A stretch of DNA of 64,000 nt, from contig OZ024743.1 of the NCBI GenBank assembly GCA_964016885.1, forward strand, positions 371,318,001 through 371,382,000, read 5' to 3'. The first letter of the stretch is position 1; each line of letters opens with the position of its first letter. This DNA comes from Eledone cirrhosa. Lineage: Eukaryota. The notes under the pieces are model-generated. The model was not told where the DNA came from, ran no database searches, and saw only the letters and a list, made by a program, of their open reading frames with translations. Made by a program: the position numbers and the translations under genes. Positions 47,085 to 60,400 of this stretch are shown piece after piece.

Positions 47085-48458
47085 GAAACCTACAGTCAGT
47101 AGGCACCTCTAACAAAAATACACCCCCGACCCACCACCCCCACCCCATCCACACCACCCCTTTCGATGTAAAGTTATGTTGGTACCACAACATCCAGTTC
47201 GAAATAAATGAGGTCGTGTAGGTGTCACGAAAAAAAAACACACAGTCCTTAATTAAGAATGTAGGATTCACATGCAGCAGCTGTGCTGAAACAGCAAGCA
47301 AACAGCCACAGGAAACAAGTACCACCAATCTCTGGGAGGGCCCTGTAGAAACAGTAGACAGCTTCTGCTACCTAGGTGACCGAATTAGCAACGGAGGTGG
47401 GTGCTCAGAAAGTACAATAACTAGGGTAAGAACGGGATGGAAAAAGTTTAGGGAACTACTACCACTGCTAGCTGCAAAAGGCTTCTCCCTCAGAATGAAA
47501 GGCAGACTGTATGATGCGTGTATCCGAACAGCGATGTTGCATGGTAGTGAGACCTGGGTGCTGAAGGTGGAAGACTTACGTAGATTAGAGAGAAACGAAG
47601 CCTGCATGCTCCGATGGATGTGTAACAGTAATATACGTGAACGACAAAGCATAAAGGAATTGAGAGAGAGACTGAGCATAAGAGGAATCAAATGCTGCGT
47701 GCAGGAGAGGCGGTTACGCTGGTATGGACATGTGATGCGTATGAAGGATGACAGCTGCATAAAAAGGTGCAGAGCACTAGAAGTTGATGGAAACCGCGGA
47801 GTGGGGAGACCCAAGATGACTTGGGATGAGGTGATAAAAGCCGACCTTACCCAACTACACCTCTCAAAGTCAATGACACACGACCGTGACTTCTGGCGTC
47901 ACGCAGTAATACAGGGTACCCGACCTCCCATGGGTACATGCTGAAGCATATAAACAATATGCCCCCCCCCCCCCCACCGCAAGGTGGTCGTGGAGGTGCC
48001 ACGGCAAAAAAGCACCCAGCCCACACTGTAAAGTGGACGTGTAGGCGCCACGAAAAAGCACCCAGCACTCACTGTAAATGAGGTTGGTGTTAGGAAGGGC
48101 ATCCAGCTGTAGAAATCAAGCCAGATCAGTTCCTGTATGAGCAAGGCATGGTCAGCCGACCAGACACTGCCCACAACAGGACAACCCGTCTAACCCATGC
48201 TAGCGTGGAAGAACGGACGTAAAACGGTGATGATGATGAGTCCACGCTGTAATGTGGCCGTGTAGGTAACACGGTAAAAACCTCCCAGTCCACACTGTAA
48301 ACGTGGTTGGTGTTAAGAAGGGCATCCAGCCATAGAAAACCCACCAGACAGTCCTATACGAGCAAGACAACCAATCTTGCCTCAAGTGGGAAAACTCCCG
48401 TCCAAACCCATGCAAGCGTGGAAGATGGACGTTAAACGATGATGATGATGATGATGAT
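47085..48458 (+). mobile_element. RTE copy (47250-48238) nested in the 3' UTR of another RTE
   Basis: Host UTR breaks at cacacagtcc and resumes agtccacgctg (AGTCC duplicated); two (GAT)n tails. Confidence 0.85.
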
Positions 48459-48782
48459 GTCAATAAAGCAAGTTATAAGATAGATTGAACAAACATGCTG
48501 AACATATAACTTATTTTCTGGAAGTCTAAGAAATTGTGTAGAGCTGTTAGTTGCTGACTCCTGTTGCTAGAGTCAGATCAATGGAATCACTTTAATCTTT
48601 AGTCTATATAACAGATAGATTTTCTAGCTGAATAAAAGGAAGAATAAGAGGGGAGAGAGAAAAAGAAAAAAAATCAGACATACAGACAGTGAGAAACAAA
48701 GAAAGATAGAAAGACAGGCCCAAACATACAAAAATACATACAATCACACACATATATCATCATCAAACATCTTCTTTCCCTG

Positions 48783-48814
<32 letters not shown>

Positions 48815-48815
<1 letters not shown>

Positions 48816-50579
48816 AAAAAGTAATAGCGCAACTAATCAGAGAGAGAATTGACCTCGATGAAATGCAGTTCGGGTTTGTGTCAGGCAAAAGTACCACAGA
48901 CGCTCTTTTCATTGTACGACAACTACAGGAGCAGTACCTAGCTAAAAGTAAACCCCCTATACTTTGCTTTCGTCGACTTGGAGAAAGCCTTCGACAGAGT
49001 CCCCCGTTCCATTATCTGGTGGGCTCTTAGAAAACTAGGTGTTGACGAATGGCTTGTGAGAGCTATACAAGCCATGTATAAAGAAACAGTCAGCAAGGTT
49101 AGAATTAACAACGAATATAGTGAAGAGTTTAGCATAAAAGTTGGCATCCATCAGGGCTCTGTTCTCAGCCCCCTACTATTTATTATTGCTCTTCAGGCTA
49201 TAACAGAGGAGTTCAAGACCGGCTGCCCATGGGAACTCCTATACGCAGATGACCTAACGCTCATAGCTGAATCAATGGCCGAGCTAGAGAAGAAATTCCA
49301 AACATGGAAGCACGGCCTAGAATCAAAAGGCCTTAAAATTAACCTGGCTAAGACCAAAGTTCTAGTTTGCAGGAAAGAAAATAAGGCGGCGGTCCCTTCC
49401 GGGAAGTGGCCATGCTCAGTGTGTAGGAAAGGTGTAGGTAGAAACTCCATTTTGTGTCCGAAATGCAAAGTATGGGTGCATAAAAGATGTAGTGGGATCA
49501 CAGGTAAGCTAACTAAGAACATAGATTTCACATGTGGCCGGTGCTCTGGTGCAATAAGTAGCAGCAAGTGCCCACAAAATACTAGCTCTTTCAACTGCGC
49601 AGAGGGCTCTATAGAAATAGTGGACAGCTTCCGTTACCTGGGTGACAAAATCAGCAGTGGGGGAGGGTGCTCTGAAAGTACAGTAGCTAGAGTCAGAACT
49701 GGATGGAAAAAGTTCAGAGAGCTTATACCACTATTAGCCACTAAAGGGTTCTCCCTAAAAATGAAGGGCAGGTTGTATGATGCCTGCATACGAACAGCAA
49801 TGTTGCATGGCAGTGAGACCTGGGCATTGTGTGCAGAGGATATACGCAGACTAGAGAGGAACGAAGCTTGCATGCTCCGCTGGATGTGTAATAGTAATAT
49901 ACGTGAACGGCAAAGCATAAACGAACTAAGGAAAAAATTAGAAATAAGAGGGATCAGATGTTGTTTACTCGAGAGAAGGCTACGTTGGTATGGTCACGTG
50001 ATGCGCATGAAAGACGATAGCTGTATAACAAAGTGCAGGGCAATAAAGATAGACGGTAGCCACGGAATAGGCAGACGCAGAAAAACCTGGGACGAACTGA
50101 TAAATTCCGACCTCACACACTTACACCTCTCCAAGACAATGTCACTGGACCGAGACCTTTGGCGGTACTCAGTAATAGAGAAGACCCGCCTTACCTAAAT
50201 ACATAGTAAAACCTACTACAGTCAGTCGGGATCTCTAACAAAATACACCCCCCTCCCACCCCCCACCCCATCCACACTGCCCCTTCTATGTAAAGTTATG
50301 TTGGTGCCACACCATCCAGGCCAAAACAAATGAGATCGTGTAGGTGTCACGACAAAAAAAAAAACCACAGTCCATGCTGTAATGTGGCCGTGTAGGCAAC
50401 ACGGTAAAAACCTCCCAGACCCACACTGTAAATGTGGTTGGTGTTAGGAAGGGCATCCAGCTGTAGAAAACCCGCCAGACAGTCCTATGCGAGCAAGACA
50501 ATCACTCTTGCCTCAAGTGGGAAAACCCCCGTCCAAACCCATGCAAGCGTGGAACACGGACGTTAAACGTTGATGATGA

Positions 50580-50585
<6 letters not shown>
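48815..50585 (+). mobile_element. Young 5'-truncated RTE with an uninterrupted RT-PHD-C-terminal ORF (over 406 aa)
   Basis: FVDLEKAFDRV, HQGSVLSP, LLYADD, C4HC3 finger, FRYLG; no stops until 50198. Confidence 0.95.
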
Positions 50586-50619
<34 letters not shown>

Positions 50620-50713
50620 GAAGTAATTCCGTCGGAAAGGTCCAGGAAAAAAGAGTGCTCTATGTAGGTTACAGAGCTTAATAGTTATGTAATAAACAAC
50701 ATAAGGTAATTAA

Positions 50714-50772
50714 TTCATTTACCAGTGGTTTCTTGAAAGCAAACAAAATTTGTTTTCAATCATCAGAATGAA
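50714..50772 (-). ncRNA. Type I hammerhead ribozyme motif (family B)
   Basis: uucauu CUGAUGA uugaaaacaaa uuuug uuugcuuucaa GAAA ccacugg UA aaugaa; inverted paralogue of 57304-57364. Confidence 0.82.
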
Positions 50773-50940
50773 AAAATCCTGGTGTATTTATTGACATTGG
50801 ATTTTAAAAACAAAAATATAATCTATATGAAAGTGAGGCTGGAAAAGGAAGAAGGAAAGGAAAAATAAACACACATGCACACACACACACACACACATAT
50901 ATACATACACACACATATATACATACACATATATATACAT

Positions 50941-52090
50941 CATCATCATCATCATCATCAGGTTTAGCGTCCGTGTTCCACGCTTGCATGGGTTTGGACA
51001 GGGGTTTTCCCACTTGAGGCAAGAGTGGTTGTCTTGCTCGCATAGGACTGTCTGGCGGGTTTTCTACAGTTGGATGCCCTTCCTAAGACCAACCACATTT
51101 ACAGTGTGGGGCTGGGAGGTTTTTACCGTGTTGCCTACACGGCCACATTACAGCGTGGACTGTCTGGCGGGTTTTCTACAGCTGGATGCCCTTCCTAACA
51201 CCAACCACATTTACAGTGTGGGGCTGGGAGGTTTTTACCGTGTTGCCTACACGGCCACATTTACAGCGTGGACTGTGTGTTTTTTTGTCGTGACACCTAC
51301 ACGATCTCATTTGTTTCGGCCTGGATGTTGTGGGACCAACATAACTGTACATTGAAAGGGGCGATGTGGATGGGGTGGTGGTGGTGGGACGGGGGGGTGT
51401 TTTGATAGAGATGCCTACTGACTGTAGTAGGTTTTTACTTTGTATTTAGGTAAGGCGGGTCTTCTCTATTACTGAGTACCGCCAAAGGTCTCGGTCCAGT
51501 GACATTGTTTTGGAGAGGTGTAAGCGTGTGAGGTCGGAATTTATCAGCTCGTCCCAGGTTTTTCTGGGTCTGCCTACTCCGTGGCTACCGTCTATCTTTA
51601 TTGCCCTGCACTTTGTTATACAGCTGTCGTCTTTCATGCGCATCACGTGACCATACCAACGTAGCCTTCTCTCGAGTAAACAACATCTGATCCCTCTTAT
51701 TTCTAATTTTTTCCTTAGTTCGTTTATGCTTTGCCGTTCACGTATATTACTATTGCACATCCAGCGGAGCATGCAAGCTTCGTTCCTCTCTAGTCTGCGT
51801 ATATCCTCTGCACACAATGCCCAGGTCTCACTGCCATGCAGCATTGCTGTTCGTATGCAGGCATCGTATAACCTGCCTTTCATTTTTAGGGAGAACCCTC
51901 TAGCGGCTAATAGTGGTATAAGCTCTCTGAACTTTTTCCATCCAGTTCTGACTCTAGCTACTGTACTTTCAGAGCACCCTCCCCCACTGCTGATTTTGTC
52001 ACCCAGGTAACGGAAGCTGTCCACTATTTCTATAGAACCCTCTGCGCAGTTGAAGGAGCTAGTATTTTGTGGGCACTTGCTACTACTTAT
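50941..52090 (-). mobile_element. Young 5'-truncated RTE, inverted relative to its neighbours, with a ~120-bp duplication in the 3' UTR
   Basis: Protein almost identical to the C-terminal half of ORF 48978-50198; possible TSD of about tatatatatgtg. Confidence 0.92.
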
Positions 52091-52353
52091 TGCACCAGAG
52101 CACCGGCCACATATATATATATGTACATACATACACATATACATACACGTACAAATACATACATACACACATATATATCCACATATCCATACATACACAT
52201 ATACACAAATACACAAACACACACATGTATATATATATATATATATATATAAACGGAAAAAATGAAACAAAAATTTATTATAATGGTCGGTGTGTTTTAA
52301 GCAAACATCCCGAATTAAGCCGTACAGTGTTTAGCAACCATCATTGCCCTTTT

Positions 52354-52440
52354 GTTCAACACTGACAAAGGACGATGTACTAGTTTCAAGCTTATTAGCT
52401 ATCGTCAGCAACGTATACCTTCCTGCCAGATGATTGAACG
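52354..52440 (-). ncRNA. Minimal type I hammerhead ribozyme motif (family A)
   Basis: acguug CUGACGA u AGCU aaua AGCU u GAAA cuag UA caucgu; extended stem I. Confidence 0.78.
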
Positions 52441-52979
52441 TCTGAAAGTATATACTTTCCTTATGCACATTAACGGCTGAGCAGCCTAATTTGCATATCG
52501 AGTGAGTTAATCGGCCAGGCGTACCGAGAACGATAAACGGAAAAAATGAAACTAAATTTCATTTCTCACTCTTAGTACGGCTGTTACTTAAATAAAAGTA
52601 TGTATACGTACATACATATATGTATACAGACGTACAGTAGTATGCAACGATGGTTGCTAAACACTGTACGGCTTAATTCGGGATGTTTGTTTACAAACAC
52701 ACCGAGCATTATAATAAATGTTCGGTAAATCCATACGTACATATATATGTGTGCATGTATGTATATATATATATACGTACTACTGTACGTCTGTATACAT
52801 ATATGTATGTACGTATACATACTTATATTTAAGTAACAGCCGTACTAAGAGTGAGAAATGAAATTTAGTTTCATTTTTTCCGTTTATCGTTTTCGGTGCG
52901 CCCGGCCGATTAATTCACTCGATATGCAAATTAGGCTGCTCAGCCGTTAATATGCATAAGGAAAGTATATACTTTCAGA

Positions 52980-53068
52980 CGTTCAACCATCTGACAGGAA
53001 GGTATACGGTGCTGATGATAGCTAATAAGCTTGAAACTAGTACATCGTTCCTTTGTCAGTGTTGAACG
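52980..53068 (+). ncRNA. Minimal type I hammerhead ribozyme motif (family A)
   Basis: CUGAUGA 53012-53018, GAAA 53033-53036, palindromic ACUAGU helix III, GUA site after 53042; long bulged stem I (acggug/caucgu, aagg/ccuu, cugaca/ugucag, cguucaac/guugaacg). Confidence 0.85.
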
Positions 53069-53421
53069 AAAGGGCAACGATGGTTGCTAAACACTGTATG
53101 GCTTAATTCGGGATATTTGTTTAGAAACACACCGAGCATTATAATAAATGTTCCGTAAATCCATACGTACATATATATGTGTGCATGTATGTATATATAT
53201 ATATATACATACTACTGTACGTTTGTATACATATATGTATGTACGTATACATACTTAATACAATTTGTTTTTGTTGATTTATGATGTATTATCTTAAGTC
53301 ATGATAGGCAAACTGTAATATTATTATTAGTATATTTCTATCTAGCTAACTTGGTCATTTACAATACAAACATAAATATGAGGATATTTGTGTTTATCAA
53401 ATATATTGATTTGTGTTAACC

Positions 53422-53455
<34 letters not shown>

Positions 53456-53629
53456 ATCATACATATATACACACGTACATACACACATATATACACGCAT
53501 ACATACGCACACACAAATATAGATATATGTACACACACCTACATACGCGCACACACAATTAATTATAAGAAAAAATATAATAATAAAAATAAAAATAAAT
53601 AAAAATATATATGTTTATGTGTGTATATA

Positions 53630-56457
53630 ACGAGACAATCACTTGATCACCTATAGATCAGGGGAACACGCCAGTCAGATAGATTATATCCGTACCAGAA
53701 GACGTGATAGAGTGTCTGTTGTAAACACTAAATCCCTCCCCCATGAAGAATGCACCTCCCAACATAGACTCATAGTTAGCGACCTCATAGTCAGGACAAG
53801 ACGTACTCGACAACAGAGGGGGGCTATCCTCAGGAGAAAAATATGGAAGCTAAAGGACCCCACAGCCAGTAATAAATTTAAAAGCATATTACATGATGCT
53901 TTCGACAGTAAGGAAGAGCAATTAGAGTCGTACAATATAGAGGAACAGTGGAAATTCCTGAAATCTAACCTGCTTAAGGCGGCAGATGAAGTCTGTGGCT
54001 GGAGCAGGCCTATAGGCAGGAGGAGAGTAACGTGGTGGTGGAACAGTAAGGTGGAGGAGTCAATTAAGGCCAAAAAGCAGGCTTGGAAAGTATGGCGGGA
54101 TGGGAGAAGTAGAGAAGACTATCAAGTGGCCAGGAGGGAAGCTAGGAGACAAGTCTACTTCACAAGAAGGGAAGCAGAGGAAAGAAAGTTTAAGCATGTT
54201 CGACAACGTGAGGACCCAAAATGTGAGGTGTTCAGGATTACTAGGCAATGTGTCAAGGAAAACCGTGATATTGTCGGGGAGAAGTGTGTCCTTAATGATG
54301 ATGGTGTACTTGCCATCACTGACGCTGATAAGAAGGTAGCTTGGAAGTGTCACTACGAAAGGCTACTAAATGAGGAGAATAATTGGGAGAAAGACAGCCT
54401 CCTCCACATCGATCCAATAGAGGGACCAGCAGTGCTAGTTGAAGGTAGTATAATAAGTAAGGCAATCAAAGATATGAAGACGGGCAAGGCGGCTGGGCCT
54501 TCGGAAATAGTTGCTGAAATGCTGAAAGCATCTGGAATGGTGGGACACACTATGGTCACCCGGATAGTAAACCAAGTCATACAGAATGGGGTTGTTCCAA
54601 AGGACTGGCGTAGCATCATTGTTAACTGTTACAAGGGTAAAGGAGATGCCCTAGATAGGGGTAACTATAGAGGCATTAAATTAATCAACCAGGTCATTAA
54701 GGTCACAGAAAAAGTAATAGTGCAACTAATCAGAGAGCGAATTGATCTAGATGAAATGCAGTTCGGGTTTGTGTCAGGTAAAAGTACTGCAGACGCTCTT
54801 TTCATTGTACAACAACTACAGGAGAAGTACCTAGCTAAAAGTAAACCCCTATACTTAGCTTTTGTTGACTTGGAGAAAGCCTTTGACAGAGTCCCCCGTT
54901 CCATTATCTGGTGGGCTCTTAGAAAATTAGGTGTTGATGAATGGCTTGTGAGAGCTATACAAGCCATGTATAAAGAAACAGTCAGCAAGGTTAGAATTAA
55001 CAACGAATATAGTGAAGAGTTTAGCGAAAAAGTTGGTGTTCATCAGGGCTCCGTTCTTAGCCCCCTACTATTTATTATTGCCCTTCAGGCTATAACAGAG
55101 GAGTTCAAGACCGGCTGCCCATGGGAACTCCTATAAGCAGATGATCTAACGCTCATAGCTGAATCAATGGCTGAACTAGAGAAGAAATTCCAAACATGGA
55201 AGCATGGCCTAGAATCAAAAGGCCTTAAAGTTAATTTATCTCAGACTAAAGTTCTAGTTTGTAGGAAGGAAAATAGGGCACCGGTCCAATCTGGGAAATG
55301 GCCATGCTCAGTGTGCAGGAAAGGAGTAGGCAGAAACTCCATTTTATGTCCCAAATGCGAAGTATGGGTGCATAAAAGATGTAGTGGGATCACAGGTAAG
55401 CTAACTAAGAATATAGATTTTACATGTAGCCGGTGCTCTGGTGCAATAAGTAGCAGCAAGTGCCCACAAAATACTAGCTCATTCCACTGCACAGATGGTT
55501 CTATAGAAATAGTGGACACCTTCCGTTGCCTGGGTGACAAAATCAGCAGTGGGGGAGGGTGCTCTGAAAGTACAGTAGCTAGAGTCAGAACGGGATGGAA
55601 AAAGTTCAGAGAGCTTATACCACTATTAGCCGCTAAAGGGTTCTCCCTAAAAATGAAAGGCAGGTTGTATGATGCCTGCATACGAACAGCAATGTTGCAT
55701 GGCAGTGAGACCTGGGCATTGTGTGCAGAGGATATACGCAGACTGGAGAGGAACGAAGCTTGCATGCTCCGCTAGATGTGTAATAGTAATATACATGAAC
55801 GGCAAAGCATAAACGAACTAAGGGAGAAATTAGGAATAAGAGGGATCAGATGCTGTTTACGCGAGAGAAGACTACGTTGGTATGGTCACGTGATGCGCAT
55901 GAAAGACGACAGCTGTATAAAAAAGTGCAGGGCGATAAAAATAGATGGTAGCCACGGAGTAGGCAGACCCAGAAAAACCTGGGACGACTTGATAAATTCC
56001 GACCTCACACACTTACACCTCTCCAAGACAATGTCACTGGACCGAGATCTTTGGCATTACACAGTAATACAGAAGACCCGCCTTGCCTAAGTACAAAGCG
56101 AAACCTACAGTCAGTAGGCACCTCTAACAAAAATACACCCCTGTCCCACTACCCACACCCCATCCACACCACACCTTTCAATGTAAAGTTATGTTGGTAC
56201 AACAACATCCAGTCCGAAACAAATGAGGCCGTGTAGGTGTCACGACAAAAAAAACACACAGTCCACGCTGTAATGTGGCTGTGTAGGTAACACGGTAAAA
56301 ACCTCCGGTTGGTGTTAGGAAGGGTATCCAGCCGTAGAAAACCTATAGAAGTCCTATACGAGCAAGACAACCAATCTTGCCTCAAATGGGAAAACTCCCG
56401 TCCAAACCCATGCAAGCGTGGAAGATGGACGTTAAACGATGATGATGATGATGATGA
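53630..56457 (+). mobile_element. Young RTE with 5' truncation inside EN; one reading frame with two nonsense changes
   Basis: ORFs 53643, 55167 and 55776 share a frame; TAA replaces the Tyr of YADD (55134-55136); TAG replaces a Trp (55773-55775). Confidence 0.95.
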
Positions 56458-56599
56458 GAGTGATTTAATGCTTATTTTCATTGATCATTTGCTCCAGGAA
56501 CTTGTTGACTGCTCTAAATCAGCTATAAACATGTATACCCTTATCTATTTATTTATTATTTGTCGTATTCCCTACTATTTGTTTACCCCTTTCACCTTT

Positions 56600-56633
<34 letters not shown>

Positions 56634-56944
56634 TTAAGAGTTAAAAGGGGGTCAATGAATACATCTAAGAATGAGTTTTACACACATACATGTGTGTGTA
56701 TGTATTTATATGTGTGTGTGTATATGTATATATATATTTATATATATATGTGTGTGTATGTATGTGTATATATATGTGTATGTGTATGTATGTGTATGTG
56801 TGTGTATGTATTTATTTATATGTATGTATGCGTATTGCTTACCACGTGTGTTTGTTCATTTATTTGTTTCTTGTATCGCTGTCAACTTTATAATAATTTT
56901 TACATTTATTTTTATTCTTATGTGACAGCCTATATGGTTGTCTA

Positions 56945-57395
56945 TTGTTTTTTATTTTTATTATAATTAATTGTATGTGCGCGTATGTAGGTGTGTGTAC
57001 ATATATCTATATTTGTGTGTACGTATGTATGCGTGTATGTGTGTATATATGTATAATTATGTGTATATATATATATGTGTGTGTTTGTGTATTTGTGTGT
57101 ATGTGTATGTATGGATATGTGGATATATATGTGTGTATGTATGTATATGTATGTGTACGTGTATGTATATGTATATATGTGTGTGTATGTATATGTGTGC
57201 GTGTGTGTTTATTTTTCCTTTCCTTCTTCCTTTTCTAGCCTCACTTTCATATAGATTATATTTTTGTTTTTAAAATCCAATGTCAATAAATACACCAGGA
57301 TTTTTTCATTCTGATGATTGAAAGCAAATTTTGTTTGCTTTCAAGAAACCACTGGTAAATGAAATAATTACCTTATGTTGTTTATTACATAACTA
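56945..57395 (+). mobile_element. Microsatellite-rich non-coding hammerhead-bearing element (family B)
   Basis: An inverted second copy is split into 53425-53600, 52090-52250 and 50687-50940. Confidence 0.72.
57304..57364 (+). ncRNA. Type I hammerhead ribozyme motif (family B)
   Basis: Stem I uuucauu/aaugaaa, CUGAUGA 57311-57317, perfect 11-bp stem II, GAAA 57345-57348, helix III ACC-acu-GGU, GUA site after 57357. Confidence 0.88.
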
Positions 57396-57440
57396 TATAT
57401 ATATATATATACATACATACATACATATGTATATATACAC

Positions 57441-60400
57441 ATATCATCATCATCATTATTTTATGTCCACTTTTCCTTGCTTGCAAGGGAGGAATGGGTC
57501 CTCTTCAGCACAGCATCTCTCCATTTGTCACAGCCCTTCATCATCTCCTCTGTGAGTTTCAGTGATCTGAGGTCAGCTCTCACCACATCCGCCCAAGTTT
57601 TCCATGGTCTTCCTTCCACTGGGATTACATGGCACTTCTTCACCCAGCAGTCATCATCCATGCGCATCACATGGTCATACGAACGTAGTCTTCTCTCCTG
57701 CACACTACAGTTTATTCCTCTTATACACAGTTTCTCTCTCAATTTGTCCATGCTTGGTTGTTTAAGCACATTGACATTGCACATCTATCAGAGCATGCTT
57801 GCTTCATTTCTCTCCCGCCTTCGCATATCCTCTGCAGTGGCTGCCCATGTCTCACTATCATGCAGCATGATGCATCTCACACAGGCATTGTCAACAGAGG
57901 AAGCAGCTCCCTAAACTTCTTCTATCCTGTCCTTATTCTAGATACTATGGTCTCGGAGCATCCCCCTCCCTTGGTAATTTGATCACCTAGATAACAGAAG
58001 CTATCAACCACCTCTATAGATCCTACTTGCACTTGAAAAATGTGCTTATCACTGACACTTCTACTATCAATTTTCCCTGAACATCTACTACATACAAAGT
58101 TTTCCATTCCTGTTAGTTTGCCTGCTATCCCACTACAACTCTTGTGTATCCAAGATCTGCATTGTGTACATTCTATAGAGTTCATACCAACTCTTTTTCT
58201 ACATATCGAGCATGGCCATTTCCCTAATGGAATCAGAGTCTTGTCCTCTTTCCTACTTATCACTACTTTAGTCTTGCTAGGTTAACTCTTAGTCGCTTTT
58301 ATTCCAACTACTATTTCCACTGTCAGAATTTATTCTCTAGCTCCTCTACTGATTCTACTATAAGTACCAGATCGTCAGCATAGAGAAATTCCCATGAGCA
58401 GCCAGTCGTAAACTCCTCTCTTATGACTTGGAGAACTATAATGAATAAAAGTGGCCTGAGGACCAAATCCTAATGAACTCCTACTTGTATCTGGAATTCC
58501 TCACTAAACTCCATTCCTACTCTCACTTTACTAACAGCTCCCCTGTACATAGCTTGCACTGTCCTCACAAGCCATTCCTCTACACCTAATTTCCTTAGGG
58601 ACCACCAGGTGACAGATTGGGGTACTCTATCAGAGGCCTTCTCTAGGTCAACAAAAGCTAAATATAGTGGCTTATTCTTCTCTAAGAACCTCCCTAAAAA
58701 GAAGGCATTTGTTGTACTTTTCCTGGGCACAAAACCAAACTGCACCTCACCTAATTTGACTCTTTCTCTAATTAGTTGTGTTAGCACTCTTTCTGTCATT
58801 TTCATAACCTGATCCATCAGTTTTATACCCCTTTACCTTTGTAGCAATTAACAAGTATACTGCTGCACCAGTCTTTGGGTATGACTCCGCCATATATAAC
58901 TTGACTATGCGTGTAACTAGTTTAGTTCCTACTTTTCCTGATGCCTTTAATATCTCAGCGACTATGCCTGACAGACCAGTGGCCTTACCACTTTTCATGT
59001 CTTTAATTGCTTCTTTGACTCTATAGTCGTCAACCTCAATATCAGGTCCCTCTGTTGGGTCTGCTGGAGATAGTTTCTCTCTCTTCCATTCATCAGTCTC
59101 TCATAGTGACATTTCCAAGTCTCCTTTTTATGAGCATCAGCAACGCTAAGTGCACCAGCATCATTTCGGGCACACTTATCTCCAACAACATCCTGATTTA
59201 CACTGACACACTGCCCTACAATATGAAACATCTCACATCGCAAAACATTAGCAAACCTCCTACTCTCAGCTTCCCTTCATGCTATGTACACTTGATGCCT
59301 AGCCTCTCTTTTAGCAGCTGAGTACCGGTCTCTACTCCCGCCAGTTTTCCAATCCTTCCATGCTTGTCTTGTCTTTAATGACTCCATCTACCATGCTGTT
59401 CCACCACCAAGTCCCCATCTGTCTCTTCAGTTGCATGCAGTAGGTTGTTGCATAAGAACTTCCAATTGTCTTCTATATCATATAATTCTAATTCGTCTTC
59501 TATATCATATAATTATAATTCGTCTTCTCTCTCCTCATACACATCCTATAGGGCTTTCCTAAACCTATATATAAGTGAAAGGTGCTTCCTTTTCCATACC
59601 TTCCTGCATGTCTCATTCTGATTGAAATGTCACTAATGACTAACCTATGTGTGTGTGTGTGTGGGGGGGGGGGGCATTCTTCCCAGGGTATGCCTTAGTA
59701 TTTGTAACCATCTGTCTGTCTCATTCCCTAACTAGCAAGAAGTCAATCTGGCTTATGTGCTTGCCTGATTGGTAGGTGATTAGGTGATTGGCAGGTTTCC
59801 TGAAGTTAGTGTTGCAAAGGGTTAGTTCACTTGCATCACAAAATTCAAGAAGCCTCACTCCTCCTTCGTTTCCATAACCATAACCAGCATGTACCCCAGT
59901 GTATCCATCCTGTAGCTGCCCAACATGACCATTGAAGTCACCTGCTAGTATGACTAGGTCTGTCCTCTGTCACTATAGTTGTCTGTAGAAGTTGCTTGTA
60001 AAAGCGGTTCTTCACCTAGGCCCACTTGGGGAGCATAGGTAGAGATAATCGTCAGCAGTCTATTGCCTACAGCTAATCTAATCTTGATGATTCTATTACT
60101 TTCTCTAACTACATCTATTGTCTTGTTAATCCACTTCTTGGCCAGTAAAATGCCTACCCTACCTATCCCATCATCGTTTCCTACCCAGAAAAAGTTATAG
60201 CTCAGCTGTTGGCCTATGATTAGCCTTGCTGAGCCACTTCTCCATCTCACCTCTTGCACCCAGCACACATCCACGTTATGCACAGCCATAACATGGTTAG
60301 TGTTATTACTGTTTACTTAGTTATTGTTATAATATTTGTATTTTGTCTTCATAATTTGGTATTAATAATATATTGGTTGGATGCCCATCCTATCACCAGC

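What the first reader, a model, noticed from the sequence alone, without database searches (positions are those of the whole stretch)
52251..53256. ORF-less ~430-nt repeat with two back-to-back hammerhead ribozymes: candidate retrozyme or non-autonomous Penelope derivative
Seen: a 430-nt-period partial tandem repeat preceded by a ~370-bp inverted copy. Each orientation carries an intact hammerhead core (CUGAUGA / CUGACGA, GAAA, GUA), a minimal palindromic helix III (ACUAGU) and a long bulged stem I. Established: Penelope-like pseudo-LTRs and metazoan non-LTR retrozymes carry minimal type I hammerheads with palindromic helix III that cleave best as dimers, and partial-tandem plus inverted layouts are typical of Penelope insertions. 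Inferred: this is a non-coding, self-cleaving mobile RNA family mobilised in trans by Penelope RT/GIY-YIG, possibly through a ~430-nt circular RNA. The U-U juxtaposition at the base of stem II is non-canonical.
Basis: partly seen in the sequence, partly recalled or inferred. Interest (0 to 1): 0.85.

Follow-up and report, generated by a model that had tools for sequence, protein, structure and literature searches.

The report
Penelope-mobilised hammerhead retrozyme, two-armed copy
This is one probably inactive copy of a very abundant protein-free jumping repeat that carries a predicted self-cutting RNA fold; its copies land in TA repeats as two back-to-back arms with two fixed ends, which points to Penelope-type retrotransposon enzymes as the likely copier, a known kind of element with an unusually readable insertion footprint.

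Summary
Observation confirmed: a 430-nt ORF-less unit, 1.4 copies on +, a 95%-identical inverted arm, one type I hammerhead per strand. It belongs to a family with over 24,000 exact 31-nt ribozyme cores, dispersed or in head-to-tail arrays, folding into a covarying structure. 3' ends fall at two fixed sites beside (TA)n (234 of 290); 55 of 56 classifiable back-to-back pairs have one end of each kind: the Penelope 'tail' footprint. Corrections: the U-U at stem II is family-wide, shared with autonomous families here and published for axolotl; the two ribozymes lie on opposite strands, so this copy cannot release a monomer. Cleavage, expression and circularity are untested; core conservation is not significantly above background. 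Verdict: new member of the animal non-LTR retrozymes (non-autonomous Penelope-like elements). The scan has reported this system before, in this genome (e.g. e1-8667415, e1-8665425) and others.

The parts
52251..52642 (-). Left arm: 5'-truncated copy (unit ~135 to 430 to ~79, internal deletion, then unit ~225-242); ends at the distal fixed 3' site (T) next to (TA)n
52378..52408 (-). Type I hammerhead core, stem II and palindromic helix III of the left arm; predicted cut after 52378; weaker stem I
52644..53073 (+). One complete 430-nt ORF-less unit (unit coordinates 1-430)
52823..52887 (+). Region between the two family-wide 3' ends, S (unit 180-190) and T (unit 244 = 52887): the ~56-60-nt 'tail'; inferred reverse-transcription start sites
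   Evidence: read-level loose end at 52887 followed by (AT)n
52924..52972 (+). Octamer-like ATGCAAAT (52924-52931) and TATA-like stretch (52965-52972) upstream of the ribozyme; candidate internal promoter, untested, motif identity recalled
   Evidence: sequence; the 26-mer overlapping it has 15,994 exact matches
52979..53068 (+). Type I hammerhead of the right arm with long bulged stem I; core 53012-53042; U.U at base of stem II; predicted cut after 53042
53074..53256 (+). Partial second unit (1-183) ending at the proximal fixed 3' site (S)
52227..52250 (.). (TA)n target; the paralogous segment at 56896-57199 (- strand) lacks the insertion and reads through the TA run (empty site)
53257..53421 (+). 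Not part of the element: 3' tip of a different, younger hammerhead repeat family inserted at the S end, followed by (TA)n

Best explanation
This is a two-armed copy of an abundant, protein-free 430-nt repeat family whose RNA carries a predicted type I hammerhead ribozyme and is likely copied into (TA)n microsatellites by the reverse transcriptase and GIY-YIG endonuclease of a Neptune-type Penelope-like retrotransposon. Shown: ORF-less units, tandem arrays, more than 24,000 cores, two fixed 3' ends, scattered 5' ends, one end of each kind per two-armed insertion. Inferred: tandem arrays are transcribed (internal promoter or read-through); neighbouring ribozymes pair through the ACUAGU palindrome and cut out unit-length RNA, which a host ligase would close into a circle (by analogy with PMC7229834); the borrowed enzyme nicks both target strands, starts one cDNA at site S and the other at site T inside the RNA (as shown in vitro for an anole Penelope element, PMC11167929), runs on for 0.1 to more than 8 units, and the two truncated cDNAs are joined back to back. 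A circular template is my preferred form but only at about 0.45; an uncut linear multimer is about 0.4. This particular copy has one ribozyme per strand, so it would not release a monomer and is likely a dead end.
For: Copy number 10,601 + 13,428 exact cores, controls 0. Cleavage-to-cleavage monomers of 421-538 nt without ORF, arrays to 8 or more units. 3' ends: 150 of 189 and 84 of 101 in two windows covering about 6% of the unit, 179 of these 234 followed by TA repeats; 5' ends scattered over 75 positions in 85 segments. Back-to-back pairs: 36 of 36 classifiable of 61 and 19 of 20 classifiable of 32 (two are a local duplicate) have one S and one T end. Craig et al. describe inverted 5'-truncated copies, a tail at one end only and (TA)n bias linked to the Neptune linker (PMC8557442, passages). 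The genome holds RT + C-terminal GIY-YIG families with the CxxxxxCxxC linker whose 3' ends also lie 130-250 nt past a hammerhead at (TA)n. Circular monomers fold at z -6.6 to -12.3 (6 of 6, 25 shuffles each); 98.5% of cells paired, 7 pairs with double changes, slid controls 24-47% (16 monomers); stem I pair 53009:53045 is G.U 27, U.G 14, A-U 12, other 4 of 57 insertions. Both arms, and tandem units, usually share subfamily markers (3.5% and 4.5% differences vs 36.7% for random pairs). One locus has both arms carrying clustered sense-strand A>G changes (18 of 29 substitutions; motif found only there), consistent with an edited RNA template.
Against: No helper identified: no homology between the unit and the downstream regions of 13 autonomous loci (best shuffle z 3.8 of 52 comparisons); only 50 of 10,598 GIY-YIG candidates were read. 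Core conservation is not significant: recurrent alleles at 1 of 12 core sites (A17>U, an allowed change) vs 20 of 103 others, p=0.31; rare changes equal, 1.0 vs 0.96 per site. In tandem dimers the predicted probability of the six-pair helix III is only 0.01-0.06, with stem II palindromes competing (5 dimers). 2 of 20 tandem pairs mix subfamily markers, and the window's arms differ at 5 of 26 marker sites, which a single re-read circle does not give. The random-pair control mixes subfamilies and so overstates the contrast. Covariation counts rest on few phylogenetic events (pairs with double change: 92 of 500 shuffles as high). In the anole element ribozyme cleavage was not needed for insertion, and only 1 of 9 Xenopus dimers cleaved in vitro. 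No genome-wide A>G bias (423 vs 406 T>C).
Confidence: 0.85

Rival explanations
1. Same Penelope mobilisation, but the template is an uncut linear multimer transcribed from tandem arrays; the hammerhead is a passenger or acts late, and no circle is needed.
For: Mixed subfamily markers in 2 of 20 tandem pairs; low predicted dimer helix III probability; ribozyme mutants did not change insertion in vitro for the anole element (PMC11167929); core not significantly more conserved than the rest.
Against: 18 of 20 tandem pairs differ at 0-1 marker sites; the cleavage-to-cleavage monomer closes on itself through the extended stem I in all subfamilies; related mussel, coral and axolotl elements accumulate as circles.
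Confidence: 0.4
2. The repeats are solo or truncated pseudo-LTRs of an autonomous Penelope element not sampled here.
For: Ends and layout are those of Penelope elements; only a small share of GIY-YIG candidates was read; most hammerheads in Penelope-rich genomes are single remnants (PMC4209133).
Against: Complete units join head to tail with no ORF between successive ribozymes (31 monomers; arrays); Penelope protein hits near family copies were few, and none of them lay in line upstream of a unit.
Confidence: 0.07
3. A SINE-like passenger of the neighbouring RT+PHD LINE family, or a DNA-level satellite or fold-back element, with a chance or relict hammerhead.
For: The copy sits between LINE fragments in microsatellite-rich DNA; arrays could grow by unequal crossing-over.
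Against: Two alternative 3' ends paired one per arm (55 of 56) match neither LINE priming nor DNA hairpin duplication; copies are dispersed with scattered 5' ends; stem I covaries; no Penelope-independent feature was seen.
Confidence: 0.06

Closest known systems
Animal non-LTR retrozymes (coral, mussel, axolotl; Cervera and de la Pena 2020, PMC7229834, parts 2-4 of 6 read, supplement unreadable; Li, Clavereau and Pollet 2026, bioRxiv 10.64898/2026.07.22.740005, parts 1-3 of 5 read, supplements not seen)
   Same: ORF-less tandem units of a few hundred nt, low GC (0.35-0.38), one type I hammerhead per unit, short palindromic helix III, highly self-paired circle; U.U at the base of helix II as in axolotl HHR_Amex2; co-occurs with Penelope elements.
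   Different: Mostly dispersed 1-2-unit, often two-armed insertions with two fixed ends in (TA)n; very long stem I; no expression, cleavage or circle data here; this copy does not meet the 'active' definition of two consecutive ribozyme-bearing units.
Penelope-like elements, Neptune type, and their pseudo-LTR hammerheads (PMC4209133 parts 1-2 read; PMC8557442 passages; PMC11167929 parts 1-2 read)
   Same: Partial tandems, inverted 5'-truncated arm, tail at one end, microsatellite target, hammerhead upstream of the 3' end, two internal start sites.
   Different: No RT or GIY-YIG ORF; tail about 56-60 nt rather than 30-40; G10.1-C11.1 replaced by U.U; no detectable homology to the autonomous families sampled.
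Non-autonomous Chlamys elements such as MRC1 (PMC8557442, passage)
   Same: Non-autonomous Penelope-like elements forming pseudo-LTRs and head-to-tail multicopy insertions.
   Different: Those resemble their autonomous families at the 3' end and mostly lack canonical hammerheads; here the hammerhead is intact and no 3' homology to a helper was found.

Membership tests
Animal non-LTR retrozyme | Short tandem repeats with a type I hammerhead in each unit | tested here: met
   Family level: 31 cleavage-to-cleavage monomers of 421-538 nt, arrays to 8 or more units
Animal non-LTR retrozyme | 'Active' copy: two consecutive units with complete ribozymes (Li et al. 2026) | tested here: not met
   This window copy has 1.4 units and one ribozyme per strand; sister loci meet it
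Animal non-LTR retrozyme | No coding capacity, GC below 50% | tested here: met
   Longest ATG ORF 78 aa in microsatellite; GC 0.35-0.38
Animal non-LTR retrozyme | Highly self-paired monomer | tested here: met
   z -6.6 to -12.3, 67-71% paired; covariation
Animal non-LTR retrozyme | Self-cleavage in vitro | not testable with these tools
   Bench test
Animal non-LTR retrozyme | Expression as linear and circular RNA | not testable with these tools
   No RNA holder listed
Animal non-LTR retrozyme | Absence of LTR, primer-binding site and polypurine tract | not tested
   No specific search run
Type I hammerhead ribozyme | Core C3 U4 G5 A6 G8 A9, G12 A13 A14 A15.1, U16.1 H17 with three helices | tested here: met
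   Both strands; intact in 45 of 57 insertions chosen by an upstream anchor; helix III can form only as a dimer (monomer probability 0)
Type I hammerhead ribozyme | Canonical G10.1-C11.1 pair | tested here: not met
   U.U in 52 of 57; precedent HHR_Amex2 still cleaves
Type I hammerhead ribozyme | Match to an Rfam hammerhead model | tested here: not met
   No hammerhead family at E<=1 in 50000-56000
Penelope-like element (insertion signature) | Fixed 3' ends, variable 5' truncation, inverted arm, tail at one end, microsatellite target | tested here: met
Penelope-like element (autonomous) | RT plus GIY-YIG ORF within the unit | tested here: not met
   None in the window or in line with units at about 180 places
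Penelope-like element (deletion derivative) | Homology to the pseudo-LTR of an autonomous family | tested here: inconclusive
   None to 13 loci of about 7 families; 50 of 10,598 candidates read

The most novel reading that the evidence does not exclude
A viroid-like 430-nt circular RNA, unrelated in sequence to its helpers, hijacks several Neptune-type Penelope enzymes by structure alone: an enzyme dimer primes the two target strands at two fixed sites on the circle and reads round it, occasionally pairing a retrozyme arm with an arm from an autonomous element (two candidate hybrids, L085 and L135) or fixing an ADAR-edited template in the genome (L195).
Probability: 0.25. Interest if true: 0.7.

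Novelty: new member of a known kind. Interest (0 to 1): 0.4.

Why it matters
Penelope-like elements have been proposed as the mobiliser of animal retrozymes from co-occurrence and pseudo-LTR homology (PMC7229834; bioRxiv 10.64898/2026.07.22.740005). Here the insertion ends themselves carry the Penelope footprint, and the near-absolute rule of one end of each kind per two-armed insertion (55 of 56) gives a genomic counterpart of the two start sites seen in vitro for one Penelope protein. That supplies a small defined RNA, two predicted start sites and candidate helper proteins for a direct assay. The class is known, the one-sided tail is in print for Penelope elements, and the scan has noted the same system repeatedly, so the gain is incremental.

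Tried and rejected
Rfam scan: no hammerhead model matched; miRNA hits are microsatellite artefacts. Sequencing runs: no RNA holder listed, which says nothing on expression; contigs of two runs were laid: X1 shows the family's variants, X4 (organism B) has only 10 low-depth contigs and is not used as evidence of spread. Helper search: GIY-YIG loci, local alignment to their downstream regions, a relaxed ribozyme pattern excluding this stem II (9 scattered matches, none homologous), and a tail-motif search (25,397 matches; 30 loci read, all family copies) found no homologous autonomous element. Hybrid insertions: two candidates, none further in 60 more loci; both junctions lie just 3' of the unit's internal TA run, so later nested insertion is not excluded and they are not used to name a helper. 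Within-locus versus best-other-locus identity was uninformative because the comparison is a maximum. A family-wide editing bias was tested and rejected. A target-site duplication could not be called in (TA)n. Lunse et al. 2017 (PMC5785218) is not held; only its citation and a review's summary were seen, so further U.U precedents there are unseen. Literature searches for a cephalopod description (octopus + Penelope + hammerhead; cephalopod + hammerhead ribozyme + retrotransposon; Penelope + non-autonomous + pseudo-LTR + tail + inverted; PMC5680766 passages) showed none, but unread supplements of PMC7229834 and the 2026 preprint may list one. The cephalopod label is recalled from sequence style and from earlier notes, not tested.

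Full report
Observation. The layout is as described: a 430-nt-period direct repeat (52644-52825 vs 53074-53257, 176/184) and an inverted arm 52270-52642 with 19 differences in 375 columns. Taking 52644-53073 as unit 1-430, the right arm runs 1-430-183 and the left arm, on the - strand, runs ~135-430-79, then jumps by an internal deletion to ~225-242 and meets (TA)n at 52250. Each strand holds a full hammerhead core with a 4-bp stem II flanked by U and U, the palindrome ACUAGU and a long stem I. Rfam's models did not detect it. The longest ATG ORF is 78 aa of microsatellite. A paralogous segment at 56896-57199 lacks the insertion and reads through the TA run, giving the empty site. The 165 nt right of the element are the 3' tip of another, younger repeat (22 copies at 100% over the full 165 nt among 40 scored).

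Family. The 31-nt core has 10,601 exact matches and a sister with a different loop II has 13,428; reversed controls give 0. Anchors outside the ribozyme give 15,994 and 25,397. The 40 best DNA matches are 95-100% identical. Complete units join head to tail with no ORF, 421-538 nt from cut site to cut site (31 monomers), in arrays of up to 8 or more units. Across 250 family locus records, about 180 distinct places with 1-1.5 kb flanks, Penelope protein hits were found at L019, L024, L029, L126/L161, L239, L284 and L288, and none lay in line upstream of a unit. The window has no Penelope ORF; its neighbours are RT + PHD LINE fragments.

Insertion footprint. 3' ends cluster at unit 180-190 (S) and 232-246 (T): 150 of 189 segments and 84 of 101 in a fresh set, 179 of the 234 followed by TA repeats, while 5' ends scatter. 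Of 93 back-to-back pairs, 56 had both ends classifiable and 55 had one S and one T (one S+S at L293; one pair is a local duplicate). The window copy fits: T on the left, S on the right. Craig et al. list partial tandems, an inverted 5'-truncated copy, a tail often at one end only and microsatellite bias for Penelope-like elements (PMC8557442, passages), and Frangieh et al. show both strands cut and reverse transcription starting at two internal sites that delimit the tail (PMC11167929). The tail here is about 56-60 nt; autonomous family B in this genome has a similar pair of ends about 70 nt apart.

Candidate helpers. PF01541 gave 10,598 candidates, 150 scored. The 50 read fall into about seven RT + C-terminal GIY-YIG families, most with the CxxxxxCxxC linker that the literature ties to Neptune elements and (TA)n bias. 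Their 3' ends lie 130-250 nt beyond a hammerhead and meet (TA)n or similar repeats, as in this family (219 and 275 nt). Two of them have U and U flanking stem II (family A at L094, L095, L098, L104, L106, L060; the L108 family at about 10 loci). None is homologous to the unit. Following a lead from note e1-8667327 I looked for hybrid insertions and found two, L135 (family B arm) and L085 (L109-like arm), each joined without spacer to a retrozyme arm; none appeared in 60 more loci, and both junctions lie beside the unit's internal TA run, so nested insertion remains possible. The helper is therefore unnamed.

RNA structure. Six monomers folded as circles give z -6.6 to -12.3 with the same branched shape, closed by the extended stem I. 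On 16 monomers 98.5% of cells pair, against 24-47% for slid controls, with 7 doubly changed pairs; that last count is not beyond shuffles (92 of 500) and relatedness inflates the others. Stem I pair 53009:53045 is kept in 53 of 57 insertions in three forms. In 57 insertions picked by an upstream anchor, the 12-nt core is intact in 45; recurrent variants within the motif fall at tolerated places (N7, loop II, H17, the first U), but core versus rest is not significant (1 of 12 vs 20 of 103, p=0.31) and rare changes are equal, as expected from decay after insertion. Monomeric helix III has probability 0; in five real dimers the swapped stem I forms at up to 0.58 but the six-pair helix III only at 0.01-0.06, so cleavage is likely slow or protein-assisted, as reported for Penelope hammerheads. 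Axolotl HHR_Amex2 has the same U.U and cleaves 22% in an hour as a monomer and better as a dimer.

Template. Tandem units and opposite arms mostly share subfamily markers (4.5% and 3.5% differences at marker sites vs 36.7% for random pairs, a control that mixes subfamilies), so an insertion usually comes from one template lineage. Exceptions: 2 of 20 tandem pairs are mixed and the window's arms differ at 5 of 26 markers. Circle and linear multimer cannot be separated with these data. At L195 both arms carry the same clustered sense-strand A>G changes (18 of 29 and 13 of 22 substitutions; the motif occurs only there), which fits ADAR editing of an RNA intermediate (inference); there is no family-wide bias.

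This copy. The two ribozymes face apart on opposite strands, each strand has only one, and a read-through RNA is predicted to pair the arms into a long duplex that hides the core. It is likely inert.

Comparison and verdict. It works like, and at family level meets the sequence-testable criteria of, an animal non-LTR retrozyme; its ends place it among non-autonomous Penelope-like elements, the link proposed in PMC7229834 and argued in the 2026 preprint. Expression, cleavage and circularity are untested. My searches showed no paper on this family, but two supplements were unseen. Earlier notes of this scan describe arrays of matching unit length in this genome and the same system elsewhere; I formed my reading before reading them. 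New member of a known kind; interest 0.4.

Noticed in passing
window 53257-53421; L252-L259: 3' tip of a very young, different repeat family (1,550 candidates; 22 of 40 scored copies 100% identical over 165 nt) that also forms back-to-back pairs with two ends at (TA)n and carries a type I hammerhead with long helices II and III about 140 nt upstream of this tip.
   Followed up: partly
L195 (G000:C1:4530124-4533144), 1104-1334 and 1645-1870: Both arms of one insertion carry clustered sense-strand A>G changes that break the ribozyme; unique in the genome; consistent with a retrotransposed ADAR-edited RNA.
   Followed up: partly
L085 899-1276 and L135 1211-1372: Arms of autonomous Neptune-type families joined back to back with retrozyme arms; hybrid insertion or nested insertion undecided.
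   Followed up: partly
L091-L110, L031-L060: About seven Penelope families with RT + GIY-YIG ORFs (open frames to 938 and 1,096 aa); several carry the U3-A8 hammerhead core variant with a CCGG palindrome and a shared promoter-like block upstream.
   Followed up: partly
L085, L091, L096, L100, L109, L258; L032 2560-2900: Further small ORF-less hammerhead families with U.U at stem II, often as short inverted pairs in (TA)n.
   Followed up: no
window 10249 (-), 50766 (-), 57311 (+): Other hammerhead-like motifs in the window, unrelated to this family; the 10249 motif matches one seen beside GIY-YIG loci L053 and L057.
   Followed up: no
window 48000-58000: Nested direct (about 5.9 kb period) and inverted duplications of an RT + PHD-finger LINE surround the element.
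   Followed up: no
window 52924-52972: Octamer-like and TATA-like motifs conserved across subfamilies just upstream of the ribozyme; possible internal promoter (motif names recalled).
   Followed up: no
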